From IMG/VR virus record IMGVR_UViG_2529292906_000009, positions 1 to 64,000 of that record: DNA of 64,000 bases; one strand, 5' to 3'. Made by a program: the position numbers and the translations under genes. Every line of letters starts with the position of its first letter. The first letter of the stretch is position 1. The notes under the pieces were generated by a model. The model did no database searches, was not told the origin of the DNA, and was given only the letters and a program-made list of their open reading frames with translations. Shown piece after piece: positions 1-55,882 of the stretch. Source of the stretch: a virus. Its lineage: Duplodnaviria; Heunggongvirae; Uroviricota; Caudoviricetes.

Positions 1-11
1 TACGAAGTTAT
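1..11. other. loxP: partial loxP recombination site (last 11 nt of the right arm; rest lies before window start)
   Basis: Window begins TACGAAGTTAT, matching the 3' end of the 34-bp P1 loxP site; position next to coi-c1 fits the P1 map. Confidence 0.5.
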
Positions 12-392: not shown

Positions 393-602
393 ATGGCTTT
401 CATTCCACCAACCATCGACGACGTTAGACATTGCTCTAACGCTTTATCTGTAGACCCCGCCGAAACCGACGCTGCCCGCGCCATTGCTGAACACTACTCA
501 AAGATATCCAATCAGGAGTACCGCATCACCCAAGACGACCTGGATGATCTCACTGACACAATCGAATATCTCATGGCCACTAACCAGCCAGACTCACAAT
601 AA
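393..602 (+). CDS. coi: Coi-like C1 inactivator (69 aa)
   Basis: 69-aa ORF directly upstream of c1 on the same strand; size and position match recalled P1 Coi. Confidence 0.55.
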   Translation: MAFIPPTIDDVRHCSNALSVDPAETDAARAIAEHYSKISNQEYRITQDDLDDLTDTIEYLMATNQPDSQ

Positions 603-712: not shown

Positions 713-1537
713 ATGATAAATTATGTCTACGGCGAACAACTGTACCAGGAGTTCGTCAGCTTCAGGGATCTCTTTCTAAAAAAAGCTGTTGCACGCGCCC
801 AACACGTTGATGCCGCCAGCGACGGTCGTCCTGTTCGCCCGGTTGTCGTCCTGCCGTTCAAAGAAACGGACAGCATTCAGGCTGAAATTGATAAATGGAC
901 TTTAATGGCGCGAGAACTGGAACAGTACCCAGACCTCAATATCCCAAAGACTATTTTATATCCAGTGCCTAACATCCTTCGCGGTGTGCGTAAGGTTACA
1001 ACTTATCAGACAGAAGCTGTGAACAGCGTCAACATGACCGCTGGCCGCATTATTCATCTGATTGATAAGGACATTCGCATCCAGAAAAGCGCGGGGATCA
1101 ATGAGCACAGTGCGAAATACATAGAGAACCTGGAAGCAACAAAAGAGCTAATGAAGCAGTACCCGGAGGATGAAAAATTCCGTATGCGTGTACACGGCTT
1201 TAGCGAAACAATGCTGCGCGTCCATTACATTTCCAGTAGCCCTAACTACAATGATGGTAAATCAGTTAGTTACCATGTGCCGCTGTGTGGTGTGTTTATC
1301 TGCGATGAAACTCTCCGTGATGGAATCATCATCAACGGTGAATTCGAAAAAGCAAAATTTAGCCTTTATGACTCTATAGAACCGATCATCTGCGACCGCT
1401 GGCCGCAGGCAAAAATATATCGCCTGGCAGATATTGAAAATGTAAAAAACAAATTGCCATCACTCGCGAAGAGAAAAAGGTCAAATCAGCCGCATCAGTT
1501 ACGCGCAGCCGTAAAACTAAGAAGGGGCAGCCAGTAA
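713..1537 (+). CDS. c1: C1 immunity repressor; 274-aa frame as read, probable frameshift in an A6 tract near the 3' end
   Basis: N-terminal ~245 aa recognised as P1 C1; many copies of its operator in the window; the alternative frame after 1445-1450 stays open to 1561 and gives 283 aa, the recalled C1 length. Confidence 0.75.
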   Translation: MINYVYGEQLYQEFVSFRDLFLKKAVARAQHVDAASDGRPVRPVVVLPFKETDSIQAEIDKWTLMARELEQYPDLNIPKTILYPVPNILRGVRKVTTYQTEAVNSVNMTAGRIIHLIDKDIRIQKSAGINEHSAKYIENLEATKELMKQYPEDEKFRMRVHGFSETMLRVHYISSSPNYNDGKSVSYHVPLCGVFICDETLRDGIIINGEFEKAKFSLYDSIEPIICDRWPQAKIYRLADIENVKNKLPSLAKRKRSNQPHQLRAAVKLRRGSQ

Positions 1538-1587
1538 ACGACAACCCCGAAAGCGCGCAATAGTTTCTATCCGGCATGGTCAATGAG

Positions 1588-3072
1588 TTATTCATTAAGC
1601 CATGCCAGAGCTTCATCAACCTGCGCTTCGTCTTCGACGCTAAGCACTTCATCCTGGGGAACATAATCCGCCAGCATAGCGAAACAATATGTATCCCAAT
1701 GGTCTGGTGAGTGCAGGTTGAGTTTTTTCTTCATATCCTCCTTACTCATCACCTTCCATTGACCTGCGGAGTTAATCCCTACAGGGATTTTCGACGCTTC
1801 CTCAATAGTTTCATTACCCTTATCCAGTCTCATACGACCAGATTTTACGGCCTCTGCGGCTTGAACGTTGGCATAAGCACGTTTATCAAAGTACAGGCTC
1901 TTATCTTCACGGCTATGCATCTTTTTACCCCAGCGTATACGCTGTACGGTAATACCATAATACTCGTACATCAGATCCGCCGTTGCTTTACCCAGCCCAT
2001 CGCCGTCTATCGCTATGGTGATATTTGGGAATCGCTCAGGATTACATTCTGCGAAAATTTTGGCGGCAAGCTGCGTTTCTGTAACGTCTGTGTATTCCAG
2101 CATTCGATAGTTGATTACACGGCGTTTATTTCTCTGGCCGGACACCATCATGATATTGATAACGGACTTATCCCGTCCCGTACCACCAGCAACGTCCACA
2201 CATGCAAGCCAGCCCCATCCTTTGGCAATCTTGACTTTCCGCCGCGTCGCACGTTCAACCTCATCACGTCCAAGAAGGAAGCCATCCTGTGATTTAGGGA
2301 ATAGTCCGCGTACCTTAATCATGTACATAGGGTTATCACGCCCGCCGTACTCCGCCAGCTTCATTTTGATAAATGCTGGCGTTACCAGCGGTGATTCCTC
2401 ACTGTTAAGCGTGATCGCCGTATAAACGCCATCAGGGTTACCAGGACGCTTGGCCAGTTTATGGTGAGTATCGTAGAAATAGCCGCTTGGGCGTGTAGGC
2501 TGTGACAGTAATAAGATGCGGTTATCCTGTCCGGTAAGAGCACCGGTGATGATACCGAAAGCTCTATCACTGACACCGGAGGCTTCATCGATAATATACA
2601 GAAGATGATCTGCGTGTTCACCGGCGAGAGCTTCTTCACTTCCCAGACGAAAGCCCTTCGGTACTACAGTCCATACACCTTTACCAGTAACCTCATAGAA
2701 AGCGGTTTCTGTCAGAACAAAATAATCAGCAAGCCATGGAAAACGGCTGGTGGCAGTAGCCCAGTTTATCTTGATGTACTTGAATATACCGGTCATTACC
2801 TGCTGAATTTTGTTCGCAACGATAATGGCGCGGGCACCGGGATACATGATTATGAACAACATGATCATGATAGAAGTCATGTCTGATTTCCCGGTACCGT
2901 GACCAGACGAAACAGATGTCTTGCTACCCTGTTCCTGCACAGACTCAATAATCAGATCCTGCTGCCAGGTAGGTGTTTTGCCGAACAAAACATCAGCGGC
3001 AGCAATCCAGTCATAACGATATAGCGCCACCAGCTCGCGCCAACGTGGATCCGTTACGCAACTTCTGGCCAT
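1588..3072 (-). CDS. pacB: terminase large subunit (494 aa)
   Basis: Terminase large-subunit fold recognised; start overlaps pacA stop; size equals recalled P1 PacB. Confidence 0.85.
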
Positions 3073-9757: not shown

Positions 9758-9768
9758 TGGATTTGCCC

Positions 9769-10674
9769 CTATATTTCCAGACATCTGTTATCACTTAACC
9801 CATTACAAGCCCGCTGCCGCAGATATTCCCGTGGCGAGCGATAACCCAGCGCACTATGCGGATGCCATTCGTTATAATGCTCGAACGCCTCTGCAAGGTT
9901 CTTTGCTGCCGTTAACCCGTCTGGTTTGGGCATGATACTGATGTAGTCACGCTTTATCGTTTTCACGAAGCTCTCTGCTATTCCGTTACTCTCCGGACTC
10001 CGCACCGCCGTGTTCTTCGGTTCAAGTCCCAACATCCGGGCGAACTGGCGTGTTTCATTAGCCCGGTAGCATGAACCATTATCCGTCAGCCACTCCACTG
10101 GAGACGACGGAAGATCGTTGCCGAAGCGGCGTTCCACCGCTCCCAGCATGACGTCCTGTACTGTTTCACTGTTGAAGCCGCCGGTAGTCACCGCCCAGTG
10201 CAGTGCCTCACGATCACAGCAGTCCAGCGCGAACGTGACACGCAGTCTCTCTCCGTTATCACAGCAGAACTCGAACCCGTCAGAGCACCATCGCTGATTG
10301 CTTTCTTTCACGGCCACTCTGCCTGTATGTGCCCGTTTCGATGGCGGTACAGCAGGTTTTCGCTCAAGCAACAGCGCATTCTGGCGCATGATCCGGTAAA
10401 CACGTTTGGCATTGATCGCAGGCATACCATCAAGTTCTGCCTGTCTGCGAAGCAGCGCCCATACCCGACGATAACCATACGTGGGCAGCTCTCCGATAAC
10501 ATGGTGTATACGGAGAAGCACATCCGTATCATCAGTGTGACGACTGCGGCGGCTATCCATCCAGTCATCGGTTCGTCTGAGAATGACGTGCAACTGCGCA
10601 CGCGACACCCGGAGACAACGGCTGACTAAGCTTACTCCCCATCCCCGGGCAATAAGGGCGCGTGCGCTATCCAC
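9769..10674 (-). CDS. insD: IS2 transposase OrfB (301 aa)
   Basis: Sequence recognised as IS2 InsD (DDE integrase domain). Confidence 0.9.
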
Positions 10675-10997
10675 TTTTTTGCCCGTCCATATTCAACGGC
10701 TTCTTTGAGGAGTTCATTTTCCATCGTTTTCTTGCCGAGCAGGCGCTGGAGTTCTTTAATCTGCTTCATGGCGGCAACAAGTTCAGAGGCAGGAACAACC
10801 TGTTCTCCGGCGGCGACAGCGGTAAGACTTCCTTCCTGGTATTGCTTACGCCAGAGAAATAACTGGCTGGCTGCTACACCATGTTGCCGGGCAACGAGAG
10901 AGACCGTCATCCCCGGTTCAAAGCTCTGCTGAACAATTGCGATCTTTTCCTGTGTGGTACGCCGTCTGCGTTTCTCCGGCCCTAAGACATCAATCAT
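10632..10997 (-). CDS. insC: IS2 OrfA (121 aa, HTH)
   Basis: [18 protein letters not shown]... recognised as IS2 InsC; overlaps insD in the -1 frame as expected for programmed frameshifting. Confidence 0.85.
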
Positions 10998-11095
10998 CTG
11001 TTCTCCAATGACTAGTCTAAAAACTAGTATTAAGACTATCACTTATTTAAGTGATACTGGTTGTCTGGAGATTCAGGGGGCCAGTCTAGCAACTC

Positions 11096-17731: not shown

Positions 17732-17748
17732 AGATTTATTAGAGCAAT
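17732..17748 (-). promoter_or_regulatory. C1 operator (16/17)
   Basis: agatttattagagcaat read directly. Confidence 0.6.
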
Positions 17749-49961: not shown

Positions 49962-50249
49962 ATGGCTGATGTACGCATTACTTGCATTACCCTCTCCGGC
50001 TCGCAATCAATCCATGAGCATATTACTCATGTGGGAAGTCCTCAATTTAATACTGGCAATGGGAAATGGACTGTTGAGCAGGTGATTAATGCTATTGATA
50101 ATAATCTCCATACATTCTATGTAACAGATAATGCAGGTAATCGTGTAGAAGTTGGGGTCGTTAATCCTGGTAATGGTGGAAGGCAGTTTATTAGAACGTA
50201 TGCAGACAATCGATGGAATAATAATTTACTATCGCTACCAATCTGTTAA
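49962..50249 (+). CDS. DUF3892-like small protein (95 aa), moron
   Basis: HEHITHVG...W...FYV...NNLLSLPxC pattern; AT-rich upstream region with TATAAT and AGGAAG; terminator downstream. Confidence 0.55.
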   Translation: MADVRITCITLSGSQSIHEHITHVGSPQFNTGNGKWTVEQVINAIDNNLHTFYVTDNAGNRVEVGVVNPGNGGRQFIRTYADNRWNNNLLSLPIC

Positions 50250-51638: not shown

Positions 51639-51908
51639 TCACCCTCTGAATCCTGCCGGTATACCCCATTGTTCGTTATCTTTATTTTTGGCTAAAACCG
51701 CATTAAGAGCTTCGTTTACCGTCATGCAATGCGGCAGATTATCGAAGTTTGATATCCCGCCAATATCAGGAGAACGCTTGTCCTTCAGGTAAGCATATTT
51801 CCGCGCTGCCGCCTCTACTTTCTGCTTGAACTCATGTTTTTGAGCGCGTTTTTTGGATAACCGCAGATTGTCAGCCTTTGCTTTTGCCTCAGCGATCCAT
51901 GAAGTCAA
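51639..51908 (-). CDS. small hypothetical protein
   Basis: 89-aa ORF downstream of the repL-like gene. Confidence 0.4.
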   Translation of the reverse strand: MTSWIAEAKAKADNLRLSKKRAQKHEFKQKVEAAARKYAYLKDKRSPDIGGISNFDNLPHCMTVNEALNAVLAKNKDNEQWGIPAGFRG

Positions 51909-52483
51909 TTTTTTGAGTCTGGTCGTTCCGGCACCGCCGGAAACTGATCTTTTTGTTTTTTAACTTGTGACTTCTTATTCTTTATTGCCACGTCATCCTG
52001 ACAGGGGGAGGGGGTATCATTTTGACATGGGGGTGTGGATAAAAAATTAAATAAAGCCAATGTCTTAGCGAGAACAGCTTTAACCTTGGTTGCCGCTGAA
52101 GAGATCTTTAATTTGCTTTCAATCAGCGCATTTTTGGCTTGTTGTGCGAAGGCCAAAAAGGATGGTGTAAACCGGTACAGGTTAGCGCGACGTTCACGGT
52201 GATCGCCGATAACAATCTCTACAGACAGGATTCCTTTGTTTACAGCTTCACGGAATGCACGAACGACGGTTGATTGGCTATAACCAGTTTCTGCCGCGAT
52301 CAGGCGGTGAGGCTTGTGAATGAAGTATTCACTGGTTGTTGCCGCGAGATTTGCACATTGCGACAGGATATGCCAGGCGCTACGGGATAGACCGGAGTGT
52401 GTTACAAAGCAGGCCAATTCATAGCCAGAAAAAGTAAAATCGCTCATCGTTATACAGCTCAGGAAAGTGACTTTAGCCAGCAT
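51905..52483 (-). CDS. HTH protein, RepL-like (lytic replicon position)
   Basis: HTH YSQSTVVRAFREAVNKGIL; sits downstream of kilA as P1 repL does, but is shorter than recalled RepL. Confidence 0.4.
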   Translation of the reverse strand: MLAKVTFLSCITMSDFTFSGYELACFVTHSGLSRSAWHILSQCANLAATTSEYFIHKPHRLIAAETGYSQSTVVRAFREAVNKGILSVEIVIGDHRERRANLYRFTPSFLAFAQQAKNALIESKLKISSAATKVKAVLAKTLALFNFLSTPPCQNDTPSPCQDDVAIKNKKSQVKKQKDQFPAVPERPDSKN

Positions 52484-53079: not shown

Positions 53080-53800
53080 CATAGTTTCTTTTTGTGCACA
53101 GAAAACCCCCAGCTAGGCTGGGGGTTCCGGAAAGCTTTCAGCTTTGAGCCAGTTATTAAAACCCCTTTTGATTTGTTAAAACACCTTGCGGTCTGGCAAC
53201 TGCAAGTGTCAAACAAGAAATCAAAAGGGGGTCCCAATGGGGAACGAAAAGAGCTTAGCGCACACCCGATGGAACTGTAAATATCACATAGTTTTTGCGC
53301 CAAAATACCGAAGACAAGTGTTCTACAGAGAGAAACGTAGAGCAATAGGCAGTATTTTGAGAAAGCTGTGCGAGTGGAAAAGCGTACGGATTCTTGAAGC
53401 TGAATGCTGTGCAGATCATATCCATATGCTTGTGGAGATCCCGCCCAAAATGAGCGTATCCGGCTTTATGGGATATCTGAAAGGGAAAAGCAGTCTGATG
53501 CTTTACGAGCAGTTTGGTGATTTGAAATTCAAATACAGGAACAGGGAGTTCTGGTGCAGAGGGTACTACGTCGATACGGTGGGTAAGAACACGGCGAAGA
53601 TACAGGATTACATAAAGCACCAGCTTGAAGAGGATAAAATGGGAGAGCAGTTATCGATTCCCTATCCGGGCAGCCCGTTTACGGGCCGTAAGTAACGAAG
53701 TTGGATGCAAATGTCAGATCGTGTGCGCCTGTTAGGGCGCGGCTGGTAAGAGAGCCTTATAGGCGCATTTGAAAAACCTCCGGCTATGCCGGAGGATATT
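53080..53800 (+). mobile_element. IS200-like element (IS200/IS605 family), boundaries approximate
   Basis: Y1 transposase gene preceded by a perfect hairpin aacccccagc-tagg-ctgggggtt; about 709 bp would restore the kilA frame. Confidence 0.7.
53237..53695 (+). CDS. tnpA: IS200 transposase TnpA (Y1 HuH, 152 aa)
   Basis: MGNEKSLAHTRWNCKYHIVFAPKYRR... recognised as IS200-type TnpA with HxH and catalytic Tyr region. Confidence 0.85.
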   Translation: MGNEKSLAHTRWNCKYHIVFAPKYRRQVFYREKRRAIGSILRKLCEWKSVRILEAECCADHIHMLVEIPPKMSVSGFMGYLKGKSSLMLYEQFGDLKFKYRNREFWCRGYYVDTVGKNTAKIQDYIKHQLEEDKMGEQLSIPYPGSPFTGRK

Positions 53801-53804
53801 TATT

Positions 53805-54094: not shown

Positions 54095-54111
54095 AAATTT
54101 ATTAGAGCAAA
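54095..54111 (-). promoter_or_regulatory. C1 operator (16/17) upstream of kilA
   Basis: aaatttattagagcaaa read directly. Confidence 0.6.
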
Positions 54112-55767: not shown

Positions 55768-55784
55768 AAATTTATTAGAGCATT
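55768..55784 (-). promoter_or_regulatory. C1 operator (16/17) upstream of the immI operon
   Basis: aaatttattagagcatt read directly. Confidence 0.6.
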
Positions 55785-55882
55785 GTTTGTTTAATAAATA
55801 CACAAATGGATCTAATAACCTCTTTTTTTAAAGGCGAAAATATGTACCCTAAATGAGTTATAAGGCAGGTGAGGTTATAATG

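What the first reader, a model, noticed from the sequence alone, without database searches (positions are those of the whole stretch)
1440..1561. Probable frameshift in a homopolymeric A tract at the 3' end of the c1 repressor gene
The c1 frame ends at 1537 (274 aa). One extra A in the A6 run at 1445-1450 would switch to a frame that stays open to 1561 and gives 283 aa, which is the length I recall for P1 C1. The observed frame therefore replaces the last 38 residues with 29 different ones. This is either a sequencing error in a homopolymer or a genuine mutation altering the repressor C-terminus, which could affect the many operators in the window.
Basis: partly seen in the sequence, partly recalled or inferred. 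Interest (0 to 1): 0.5.

Follow-up and report, generated by a model that had tools for sequence, protein, structure and literature searches.

The report
Likely homopolymer sequencing error in c1
The P1-type phage repressor gene c1 in this window is one A short in a run of A's and so reads as a truncated, altered protein, but how this change is distributed across public assemblies indicates a base-calling error in an old draft genome, not a real mutation.

Summary
c1 reads 713-1537 (274 aa). Restoring one A to the A6 run gives the canonical 283-aa C1 ending at 1561.

The window is NCBI draft contig AIFV01000003.1, a P1-like phage-plasmid of E. coli. P1, P7, phiW39 and essentially all finished relatives carry A7.

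Outside NCBI drafts AIFV, AIGE and AKNH, two early SRA runs and one IMG/VR contig, A6 appears in only two records. Both are riddled with frameshifts. The A6 records carry at least four different c1 haplotypes. Three of these have A7 counterparts that differ at 0-2 other sites in c1.

The wild-type frame downstream of the run is intact and is the frame under selection: 12 of 19 population variants are synonymous there, against 3 of 19 in the frame as read.

The window has a second A7-to-A6 frameshift, in repL, which recurs in AKNH and in AKNI and AIGC, accessions adjacent to AKNH and AIGE.

Best explanation: homopolymer under-calling, confidence about 0.85. A real slippage mutation in a partly decayed prophage stays possible, about 0.12. 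Reads or Sanger sequencing would settle it. Interest is low.

The parts
713..1537 (+). c1 repressor ORF as read: 274 aa, made of 245 native residues plus 29 out-of-frame residues
   Evidence: ORF list and translation. The precomputed Pfam hit is PF27008 Phage_P7_repressor_C1. Homologues are listed.
1444..1449 (+). A6 run where relatives carry A7; this is the site of the apparent -1 frameshift
   Evidence: Sequence. Alignment A1 against P1, P1 OP279344 and phiW39. Comparisons with pQ502, P1 and CH4790.
1450..1561 (+). Wild-type-frame tail of c1 (QIAITREEKKVKSAASVTRSRKTKKGQPVNDNPESAQ plus TAG), intact but out of frame as read
   Evidence: Translation. The tail is conserved in homologues of 53-79% identity. 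In this frame 12 of 19 population variants are synonymous, against 3 of 19 in the frame as read.
778..784 (+). The other A7 run inside c1, intact in the window. It is A6 in the error-ridden record ON470617.2.
51956..51961 (-). Second A7-to-A6 difference (T6 on the + strand), lying inside repL
51639..52483 (-). repL split by that frameshift into ORFs of 192 aa (51905-52483) and 89 aa (51639-51908); relatives have a 281-aa gene
393..602 (+). coi (C1 inactivator) upstream of c1; context showing the canonical immC layout
   Evidence: and the P1 annotation.
1588..3072 (-). pacB, convergent with c1; intact at 494 aa

Best explanation
The gene is the ordinary c1 repressor of a P1-like phage-plasmid. 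The missing A is most likely a homopolymer-length under-call in the draft assembly that the window comes from (NCBI contig AIFV01000003.1). If so, the plasmid carries A7 and encodes the normal 283-aa C1, which represses the 13 operator-like sites in the window as in P1. Shown here: the one-base difference; how rare it is; its restriction to particular assemblies; its presence on several haplotypes; and a second identical-type error in repL. Inferred, not shown: that the reads themselves under-call the run, and that the platform was flow-based. I recall 454 pyrosequencing being used for this batch but could not verify it.
For: 1. Source: the window is identical, with the same coordinates, to AIFV01000003.1 of GCA_000249595.2.

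2. Rarity: an 86-nt probe found no record at 99% identity or better among 701 finished E. coli records or 702 PLSDB plasmids. A 46-nt probe that can only seed on A6 found exactly one record, NZ_CP123964.1. In that record PGAP marks 6 of the 15 surrounding genes, c1 included, as frameshifted. In IMG/VR, A6 occurs in 1 contig against at least 120 with A7.

3. The only phage record with A6 is ON470617.2. It has dozens of split genes and 49 one-base indels against P1 in 42 kb, 35 of them deletions. Its second c1 frameshift is in the other A7 run of c1.

4. The exact 274-aa protein occurs on only 6 contigs of a 153-billion-gene index. These come from drafts AIFV, AIGE and AKNH and from Logan assemblies of two early SRA runs. 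The NCBI protein accessions are EHV63647, EHV94271, EHV96381 and EIQ58086. The Logan contig of SRR063725 carries an extra T4-to-T3 deletion that splits pacA.

5. A6 lies on at least four distinct c1 haplotypes. Two have A7 counterparts identical at every other c1 site, and the window's nearest A7 counterparts differ at 2 sites.

6. The window has a second ORF-breaking A7-to-A6 change, in repL. The same change is present in AKNH, AKNI (with a further T-run deletion) and AIGC.

7. All 47-53 reference runs of length 6 are unchanged in the window. Of reference runs of 7 or more, 2-4 of 11-15 are one base shorter in the window, and none of the cleanly flanked runs is longer.

8. The wild-type frame after the run is fully open. 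It is the conserved frame in homologues and the frame in which variation is mostly synonymous.
Against: No reads were available, so the error is not observed directly. The Logan assembly of SRR094143 reproduces the window exactly over 7,064 nt, A6 included. If that run were Illumina data it would support a real allele; its platform is unknown to me. A7 tracts are also natural slippage hot spots with a deletion bias, so recurrence alone does not exclude real mutations. The plasmid carries at least one real lesion in its lytic replicon, an IS200-like insertion in kilA, so it may be a decaying prophage in which real frameshifts accumulate. The repL A6 allele also occurs in some plasmids deposited as complete, whose sequencing technology I do not know. 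The window is otherwise clean, with most A7 and A8 runs intact.
Confidence: 0.85

Rival explanations
1. This is a genuine -1 slippage mutation in the A7 tract. The plasmid then makes a C1 with 245 native residues and a novel 29-residue basic tail. Repressor function would be altered or lost in a prophage whose lytic replicon is already damaged.
For: A7 runs are natural slippage hot spots. The plasmid has a real IS200-like insertion in kilA and a repL frameshift, which fits prophage decay. A second assembly made from raw reads (Logan SRR094143) gives the same A6. The replacement tail is also basic, so some function might survive.
Against: The allele is essentially absent from about 700 finished P1-like plasmids, and the single exception is an error-ridden assembly. 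It occurs on at least four haplotypes, concentrated in one group of drafts. No substitutions have accumulated in the now out-of-frame tail. Two A6 haplotypes are identical to A7 counterparts at every other c1 site. The tail is conserved across homologues of 53-79% identity. The plasmid keeps 13 C1 operator-like sites, and the pacA, pacB and lpa genes checked are intact, so losing C1 should be harmful.
Confidence: 0.12
2. The A6 allele is real and is rescued during expression. In the reading frame, GT A_AAA_AAC forms an X_XXY_YYZ slippery heptamer. A -1 ribosomal shift there, or insertion of an extra A by RNA polymerase, would restore the wild-type tail. The run would then act as a recoding or phase-variable switch for immunity.
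For: From the sequence alone, the heptamer A_AAA_AAC (1443-1449 plus C1450) is in the correct phase, and a -1 shift leads exactly into the wild-type frame. Both -1 (A6) and +1 (A8, protein P0002) length variants of this run exist in databases.
Against: There is no downstream stimulatory structure: the 81 nt after the site fold with a z-score of -0.60. I saw no Shine-Dalgarno-like element upstream on reading the sequence. Relatives carry a single uninterrupted 283-aa ORF with A7, so no two-frame arrangement is conserved. Length variants are absent from clean assemblies.
Confidence: 0.03

Closest known systems
C1 repressor of phages P1 and P7 (283 aa; P1 c1.100 AAQ14081.1 / YP_006577.1; Pfam PF27008)
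   Same: The first 245 residues match: a partial E. coli C1 (P0003) is 100% identical over the 85% of the query it covers, and P0001 is 90% identical overall. The layout is the same, with coi upstream, pacB convergent downstream, and Oc1-type operators at 138-154 and 602-618. The DNA is 97.5% identical to P1 and 99.3% to phiW39 and SJ46.
   Different: As read, the last 38 residues are replaced by 29 others because the A7 run is A6.
Homopolymer-length miscalls of flow-based or nanopore sequencing (established knowledge, not tested with reads here)
   Same: A one-base under-call in a run of 7 or more. The downstream frame is intact. The same change appears in unrelated templates, and it co-occurs with other homopolymer indels in the same assemblies.
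   Different: The platform of this assembly could not be verified, and the window has only two ORF-breaking cases in 64 kb.
Programmed -1 frameshift sites such as E. coli dnaX and IS911 (A_AAA_AAG)
   Same: An in-phase A-rich X_XXY_YYZ heptamer exists in the A6 allele.
   Different: There is no stimulatory structure. The two-frame arrangement is not conserved. Relatives have one continuous ORF.
Phase-variable contingency loci (homopolymer tracts in coding regions)
   Same: A coding homopolymer with -1 and +1 length variants present in databases.
   Different: The variants are not seen in clean finished assemblies: about 1 in 700, and that record is error-ridden.

Membership tests
P1/P7 C1 repressor family (PF27008) | Sequence homology across the body of the protein | tested here: met
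   The precomputed PF27008 hit is on the 274-aa product. Twenty homologues were found with E-values down to 1.6e-160. The invariant columns are shared.
P1/P7 C1 repressor family (PF27008) | Full length of about 282-294 aa with the conserved C-terminal tail (KSAAS..TR.RK....NPES..) | tested here: not met
   The frame as read ends at 274 aa with an unrelated tail. The conserved tail is present and intact one frame over, so the feature is met once a single A is restored.
P1/P7 C1 repressor family (PF27008) | immC context: coi upstream, C1 operators at its promoter, pacB convergent downstream | tested here: met
   There are 13 operator-like matches in the window against 0.3 expected by chance.
Homopolymer sequencing artefact | A single-base length change in a long homopolymer, with the downstream frame otherwise intact | tested here: met
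Homopolymer sequencing artefact | The same change recurs on unrelated templates and is restricted to assemblies that show other indel errors | tested here: met
   A6 lies on at least four haplotypes. It is absent from clean finished plasmids. Carriers show other frameshifts.
Homopolymer sequencing artefact | Reads or flowgrams ambiguous or discordant at the site; a known error-prone platform | not testable with these tools
   No read data were available. The paper describing this genome set, as I recall it (PMC3370608), is not held. Accession searches found nothing.
Programmed -1 ribosomal frameshift site | An in-phase slippery heptamer X_XXY_YYZ | tested here: met
   A_AAA_AAC lies in phase in the A6 allele.
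Programmed -1 ribosomal frameshift site | A stimulatory element (downstream structure or upstream SD-like sequence) and a conserved two-frame arrangement | tested here: not met
   The fold z-score is -0.60. Relatives carry one continuous ORF with A7.
Phase-variable contingency locus | Both tract lengths segregate in natural populations in reliable assemblies | tested here: not met
   One record in about 700 finished plasmids has A6, and that record is full of PGAP-flagged frameshifts.

The most novel reading that the evidence does not exclude
The A7 tract near the 3' end of c1, and a similar tract in repL, could be a genuinely hypermutable switch. Reversible slippage, or -1 recoding at A_AAA_AAC, would then modulate repressor activity and set the rate of spontaneous induction, or of domestication, of P1-like phage-plasmids. 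On this reading the A6 alleles in several draft genomes are real.
Probability: 0.05. Interest if true: 0.55.

Novelty: not a real feature. Interest (0 to 1): 0.08.

Why it matters
If the change is an artefact, as argued, the matter is one of annotation hygiene. The four NCBI protein records for a 274-aa 'repressor protein C1' and the split repL calls should not be read as natural variants. Analyses of prophage intactness or immunity in these draft genomes would misclassify the plasmid as c1-defective.

If the change were real, it would be a natural C-terminal variant of a repressor whose C-terminus I could find no functional or structural data for. No solved homologue exists. In that case it could inform how the tail contributes to operator binding, looping, or interaction with Coi and Lxc.

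Tried and rejected
- **Programmed frameshift:** the heptamer is in phase, but the downstream RNA folds no better than shuffles and the arrangement is not conserved. Rejected.
- **Wholesale homopolymer compression of the assembly:** rejected. The window keeps 14 A/T7 and 3 A/T8 runs, at densities like those of P1.
- **lpa as a third broken gene (124 versus 150 aa):** this proved to be only a difference in start-codon calling. The DNA is identical to the Logan contig and the 150-aa frame is open.
- **Indels at 31625, 1590 and in the 54.7-kb and 43.4-kb clusters:** these are edge effects of alignment blocks or paired, compensating indels in divergent segments, not frameshifts.
- **Pfam scan:** the local copy lacks PF27008 and returned nothing.
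- **PDB sequence search:** no homologue.
- **AlphaFold2 on an 11-sequence alignment:** low confidence (mean pLDDT 61.7). It suggests a helix at 238-261 and a disordered 262-283, which is too weak to judge the functional effect.
- **Literature:** the P1 genome paper, as I recall its id, and the genome-set paper, as I recall it (PMC3370608), are not held. Searches for the accession and run numbers found nothing relevant. No open-access paper in the search looked, from its title and abstract, to address the C1 C-terminus; none was opened.
- **813R1 (ON470617.2) as an Illumina-validated A6 case:** its preprint reports HiSeq plus SPAdes. However, the deposited version 2 is full of split genes and deletion-biased one-base indels, so it cannot validate the allele.

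Full report
**What is in the sequence**

The window starts inside loxP and runs colinearly with the P1 genome in reverse orientation. On the + strand lie coi (393-602) and c1 (ATG 713). pacB converges on the - strand at 1588-3072.

c1 as read stops at 1537 and gives 274 aa. The neighbouring frame from 1438 reads KKQIAITREEKKVKSAASVTRSRKTKKGQPVNDNPESAQ* and ends at 1561.

The two readings share 245 residues. The frame as read then adds 29 residues, and the other frame adds 38, giving 283 aa. This is the annotated length of c1 in P1, phiW39, pQ502 and CH4790. A direct alignment shows A7 in P1 AF234172, P1 OP279344 and phiW39, and A6 in the window.

**Where the window comes from**

An exact-protein look-up shows the window is NCBI draft contig AIFV01000003.1 of GCA_000249595.2. 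It is 100% identical with the same coordinates. The element is a mosaic P1-like phage-plasmid. Its closest finished relatives are plasmid unnamed3 of E. coli CH4790 (99.8% over the first 9.7 kb) and pQ502.

**How common the A6 allele is**

- An 86-nt probe around the run found about 700 matching records in each of the finished E. coli set and PLSDB. None reached 99% identity, and the listed hits span 87 nt, which means A7.
- That test could miss A6 combined with a nearby SNP. I therefore used a 46-nt probe that cannot seed megablast on an A7 template. It found exactly one record in each collection, and it was the same plasmid, NZ_CP123964.1.
- In that plasmid PGAP marks c1 and 5 more of the 15 surrounding genes as frameshifted.
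- In IMG/VR the A6 pattern occurs once, against at least 120 contigs with A7.
- Among phage records, only ON470617.2 (vB_EcoM-813R1) has A6. That record has capsid, tail-fibre, sit, darB, cin and simC genes split into pieces. It shows 49 one-base indels against P1 in 42 kb, 35 of them deletions. Its c1 carries a second deletion in the gene's other A7 run. Its preprint describes Illumina plus SPAdes, but the deposited version 2 is clearly not a clean sequence.

**Who else has exactly this protein**

Only six contigs in the 153-billion-gene index carry it:
- AIFV, which is the window;
- a Logan assembly of SRR094143, identical to the window over 7,064 nt;
- a second plasmid haplotype, 34 SNPs different in 4.5 kb, found in AKNH01000072, AIGE01000043 and a Logan assembly of SRR063725.

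The NCBI protein accessions are EHV63647, EHV94271 and EHV96381, plus EIQ58086 from E. coli EPECa12. I take these to belong to one group of 2011-2012 submissions. That is an inference from the accession blocks and my recollection, and I could not verify it. The SRR063725 contig differs from its haplotype mates only by a further T4-to-T3 deletion, which splits pacA.

**Haplotype test**

Across 121 full-length c1 sequences gathered here, A6 sits on at least four different c1 haplotypes: the window, AKNH/AIGE, IMG/VR 2534681832, and 813R1. The second and third have A7 counterparts identical at every other c1 site. The window's nearest A7 sequences differ at 2 sites.

A real mutation would therefore have had to arise independently several times. 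It would also have had to be sampled almost only by one group of drafts and two error-ridden assemblies. A context-dependent miscall predicts exactly this pattern.

**A second frameshift in the window**

I scanned the whole window against P1, pQ502 and CH4790. Only two isolated one-base indels break conserved ORFs, and both are A7 to A6. One is in c1. The other is in repL at 51956-61 (T6 on the + strand). It splits the 281-aa gene into ORFs of 192 and 89 aa.

The sequence contexts are alike: GTAAAAAA(A)CAAA in c1 and GTTAAAAAA(A)CAAAAA in repL. The same repL change is present in AKNH, which also has the c1 A6. It is also in AKNI, together with another T-run deletion, and in AIGC, on several haplotypes. 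It also occurs in some plasmids deposited as complete whose sequencing technology I do not know, and in at most 2 of 518 finished E. coli records. The repL case alone is therefore not decisive.

Run-length bookkeeping gives a clear pattern. All 47-53 reference runs of length 6 are unchanged in the window. Of reference runs of 7 or more, 2-4 of 11-15 are one base shorter in the window. None of the cleanly flanked runs is longer. One noncoding run, 33640-47, is longer in the window than in its relatives.

**Which frame is the biological one**

Homologues at 53-79% identity are 282-294 aa long and conserve the tail in the wild-type frame. Among 17 distinct tail sequences, 12 of 19 variant sites are synonymous in the wild-type frame. 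Only 3 of 19 are synonymous in the frame as read. The window's wild-type-frame tail is intact.

The window keeps 13 C1 operator-like sites against 0.3 expected by chance. The lytic genes I checked are intact. A working C1 should therefore still be needed.

**Possible functional effect if the change is real**

No solved structure is homologous by sequence. A shallow-alignment AlphaFold2 model is low-confidence. It suggests a helix at 238-261 and a disordered 262-283, so the shift at residue 246 would rewrite half of that helix and the basic tail. This is too weak to predict function.

**Alternatives considered**

In the A6 allele, A_AAA_AAC is an in-phase -1 slippery heptamer that would lead back into the wild-type frame. 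There is no stimulatory structure (z = -0.60) and no conserved two-frame arrangement, so I reject programmed recoding. A phase-variable switch is not supported either, because length variants are absent from clean assemblies.

A genuine slippage mutation in a decaying prophage remains possible. The plasmid has a real IS200-like insertion in kilA, and the Logan assembly from raw reads repeats A6. That assembly probably uses the same reads as the NCBI one.

**Verdict**

This is an ordinary P1-type c1 gene with, most probably (about 0.85), a homopolymer under-call in an old draft assembly. The finding is correct as an observation but of low biological interest. Reads or Sanger sequencing of the strain would settle it.

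Noticed in passing
window 51956-51961 (repL, - strand; ORFs 51905-52483 and 51639-51908): There is a second A7-to-A6 frameshift, which splits the lytic replication initiator gene repL into ORFs of 192 and 89 aa. The same change recurs in AKNH, AKNI, AIGC, CP088422, CP051361 and JAEEGD assemblies on several haplotypes.
   Followed up: yes
window 53094-53802: A 709-bp insertion encodes a Y1 (IS200/IS605-family) transposase at 53237-53695. It interrupts kilA at the position of P1 nt 50116-50118. This leaves a 189-aa KilA remnant and separates repL from the C1-controlled promoter annotated upstream of kilA in P1 (PkilA/OrepL). Unlike the homopolymer changes, this is a real structural lesion of the lytic replicon.
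   Followed up: partly
window ~9759-11084: An insertion of about 1.3 kb relative to P1, pQ502 and CH4790 carries IS3-family transposase ORFs (rve and HTH_Tnp_1 domains; genes at 9769-10674 and 10632-10997). It sits at the position of P1 nt 85559-85567, near the start of pmgV.
   Followed up: no
L156 / L003 (ON470617.2, vB_EcoM-813R1): This deposited 'complete genome' has many split structural genes and deletion-biased one-base indels, including two in c1. Yet its preprint reports Illumina HiSeq plus SPAdes. The record looks unreliable for gene-level inference.
   Followed up: partly
L157 (NZ_CP123964.1, plasmid pSCLS1): This is the only finished E. coli plasmid with the c1 A6 allele. PGAP marks 6 of the 15 genes in the 12-kb neighbourhood, c1 included, as frameshifted, which suggests an unpolished long-read assembly.
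   Followed up: partly
protein P0002 (Logan; representative of a 484-member cluster): This C1 variant ends ...ENVKKTNCHHSRREKG. It is in the third frame after the same run, which implies an A8 (+1) version of the tract in at least one public run.
   Followed up: no
window 33503-33508, 33640-33647, 55823-55829: These noncoding homopolymers differ in length from relatives: T6 versus T7 in CH4790; A8 versus A7 in CH4790 and A6 in P1; T7 versus T8 in CH4790 and P1. They may be polymorphisms or further miscalls.
   Followed up: no
window 1-11: The contig, and so the window, begins inside the loxP site (tacgaagttat). The draft assembly therefore broke at lox.
   Followed up: no
window-wide (e.g. 138-154, 17732-17748, 33841-33857, 37363-37379, 54095-54111, 55768-55784): There are 13 matches to the C1 operator consensus ATTGCTCTAATAAATTT with up to 3 mismatches, against 0.3 expected by chance. 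The C1 regulon of this plasmid appears intact.
   Followed up: partly
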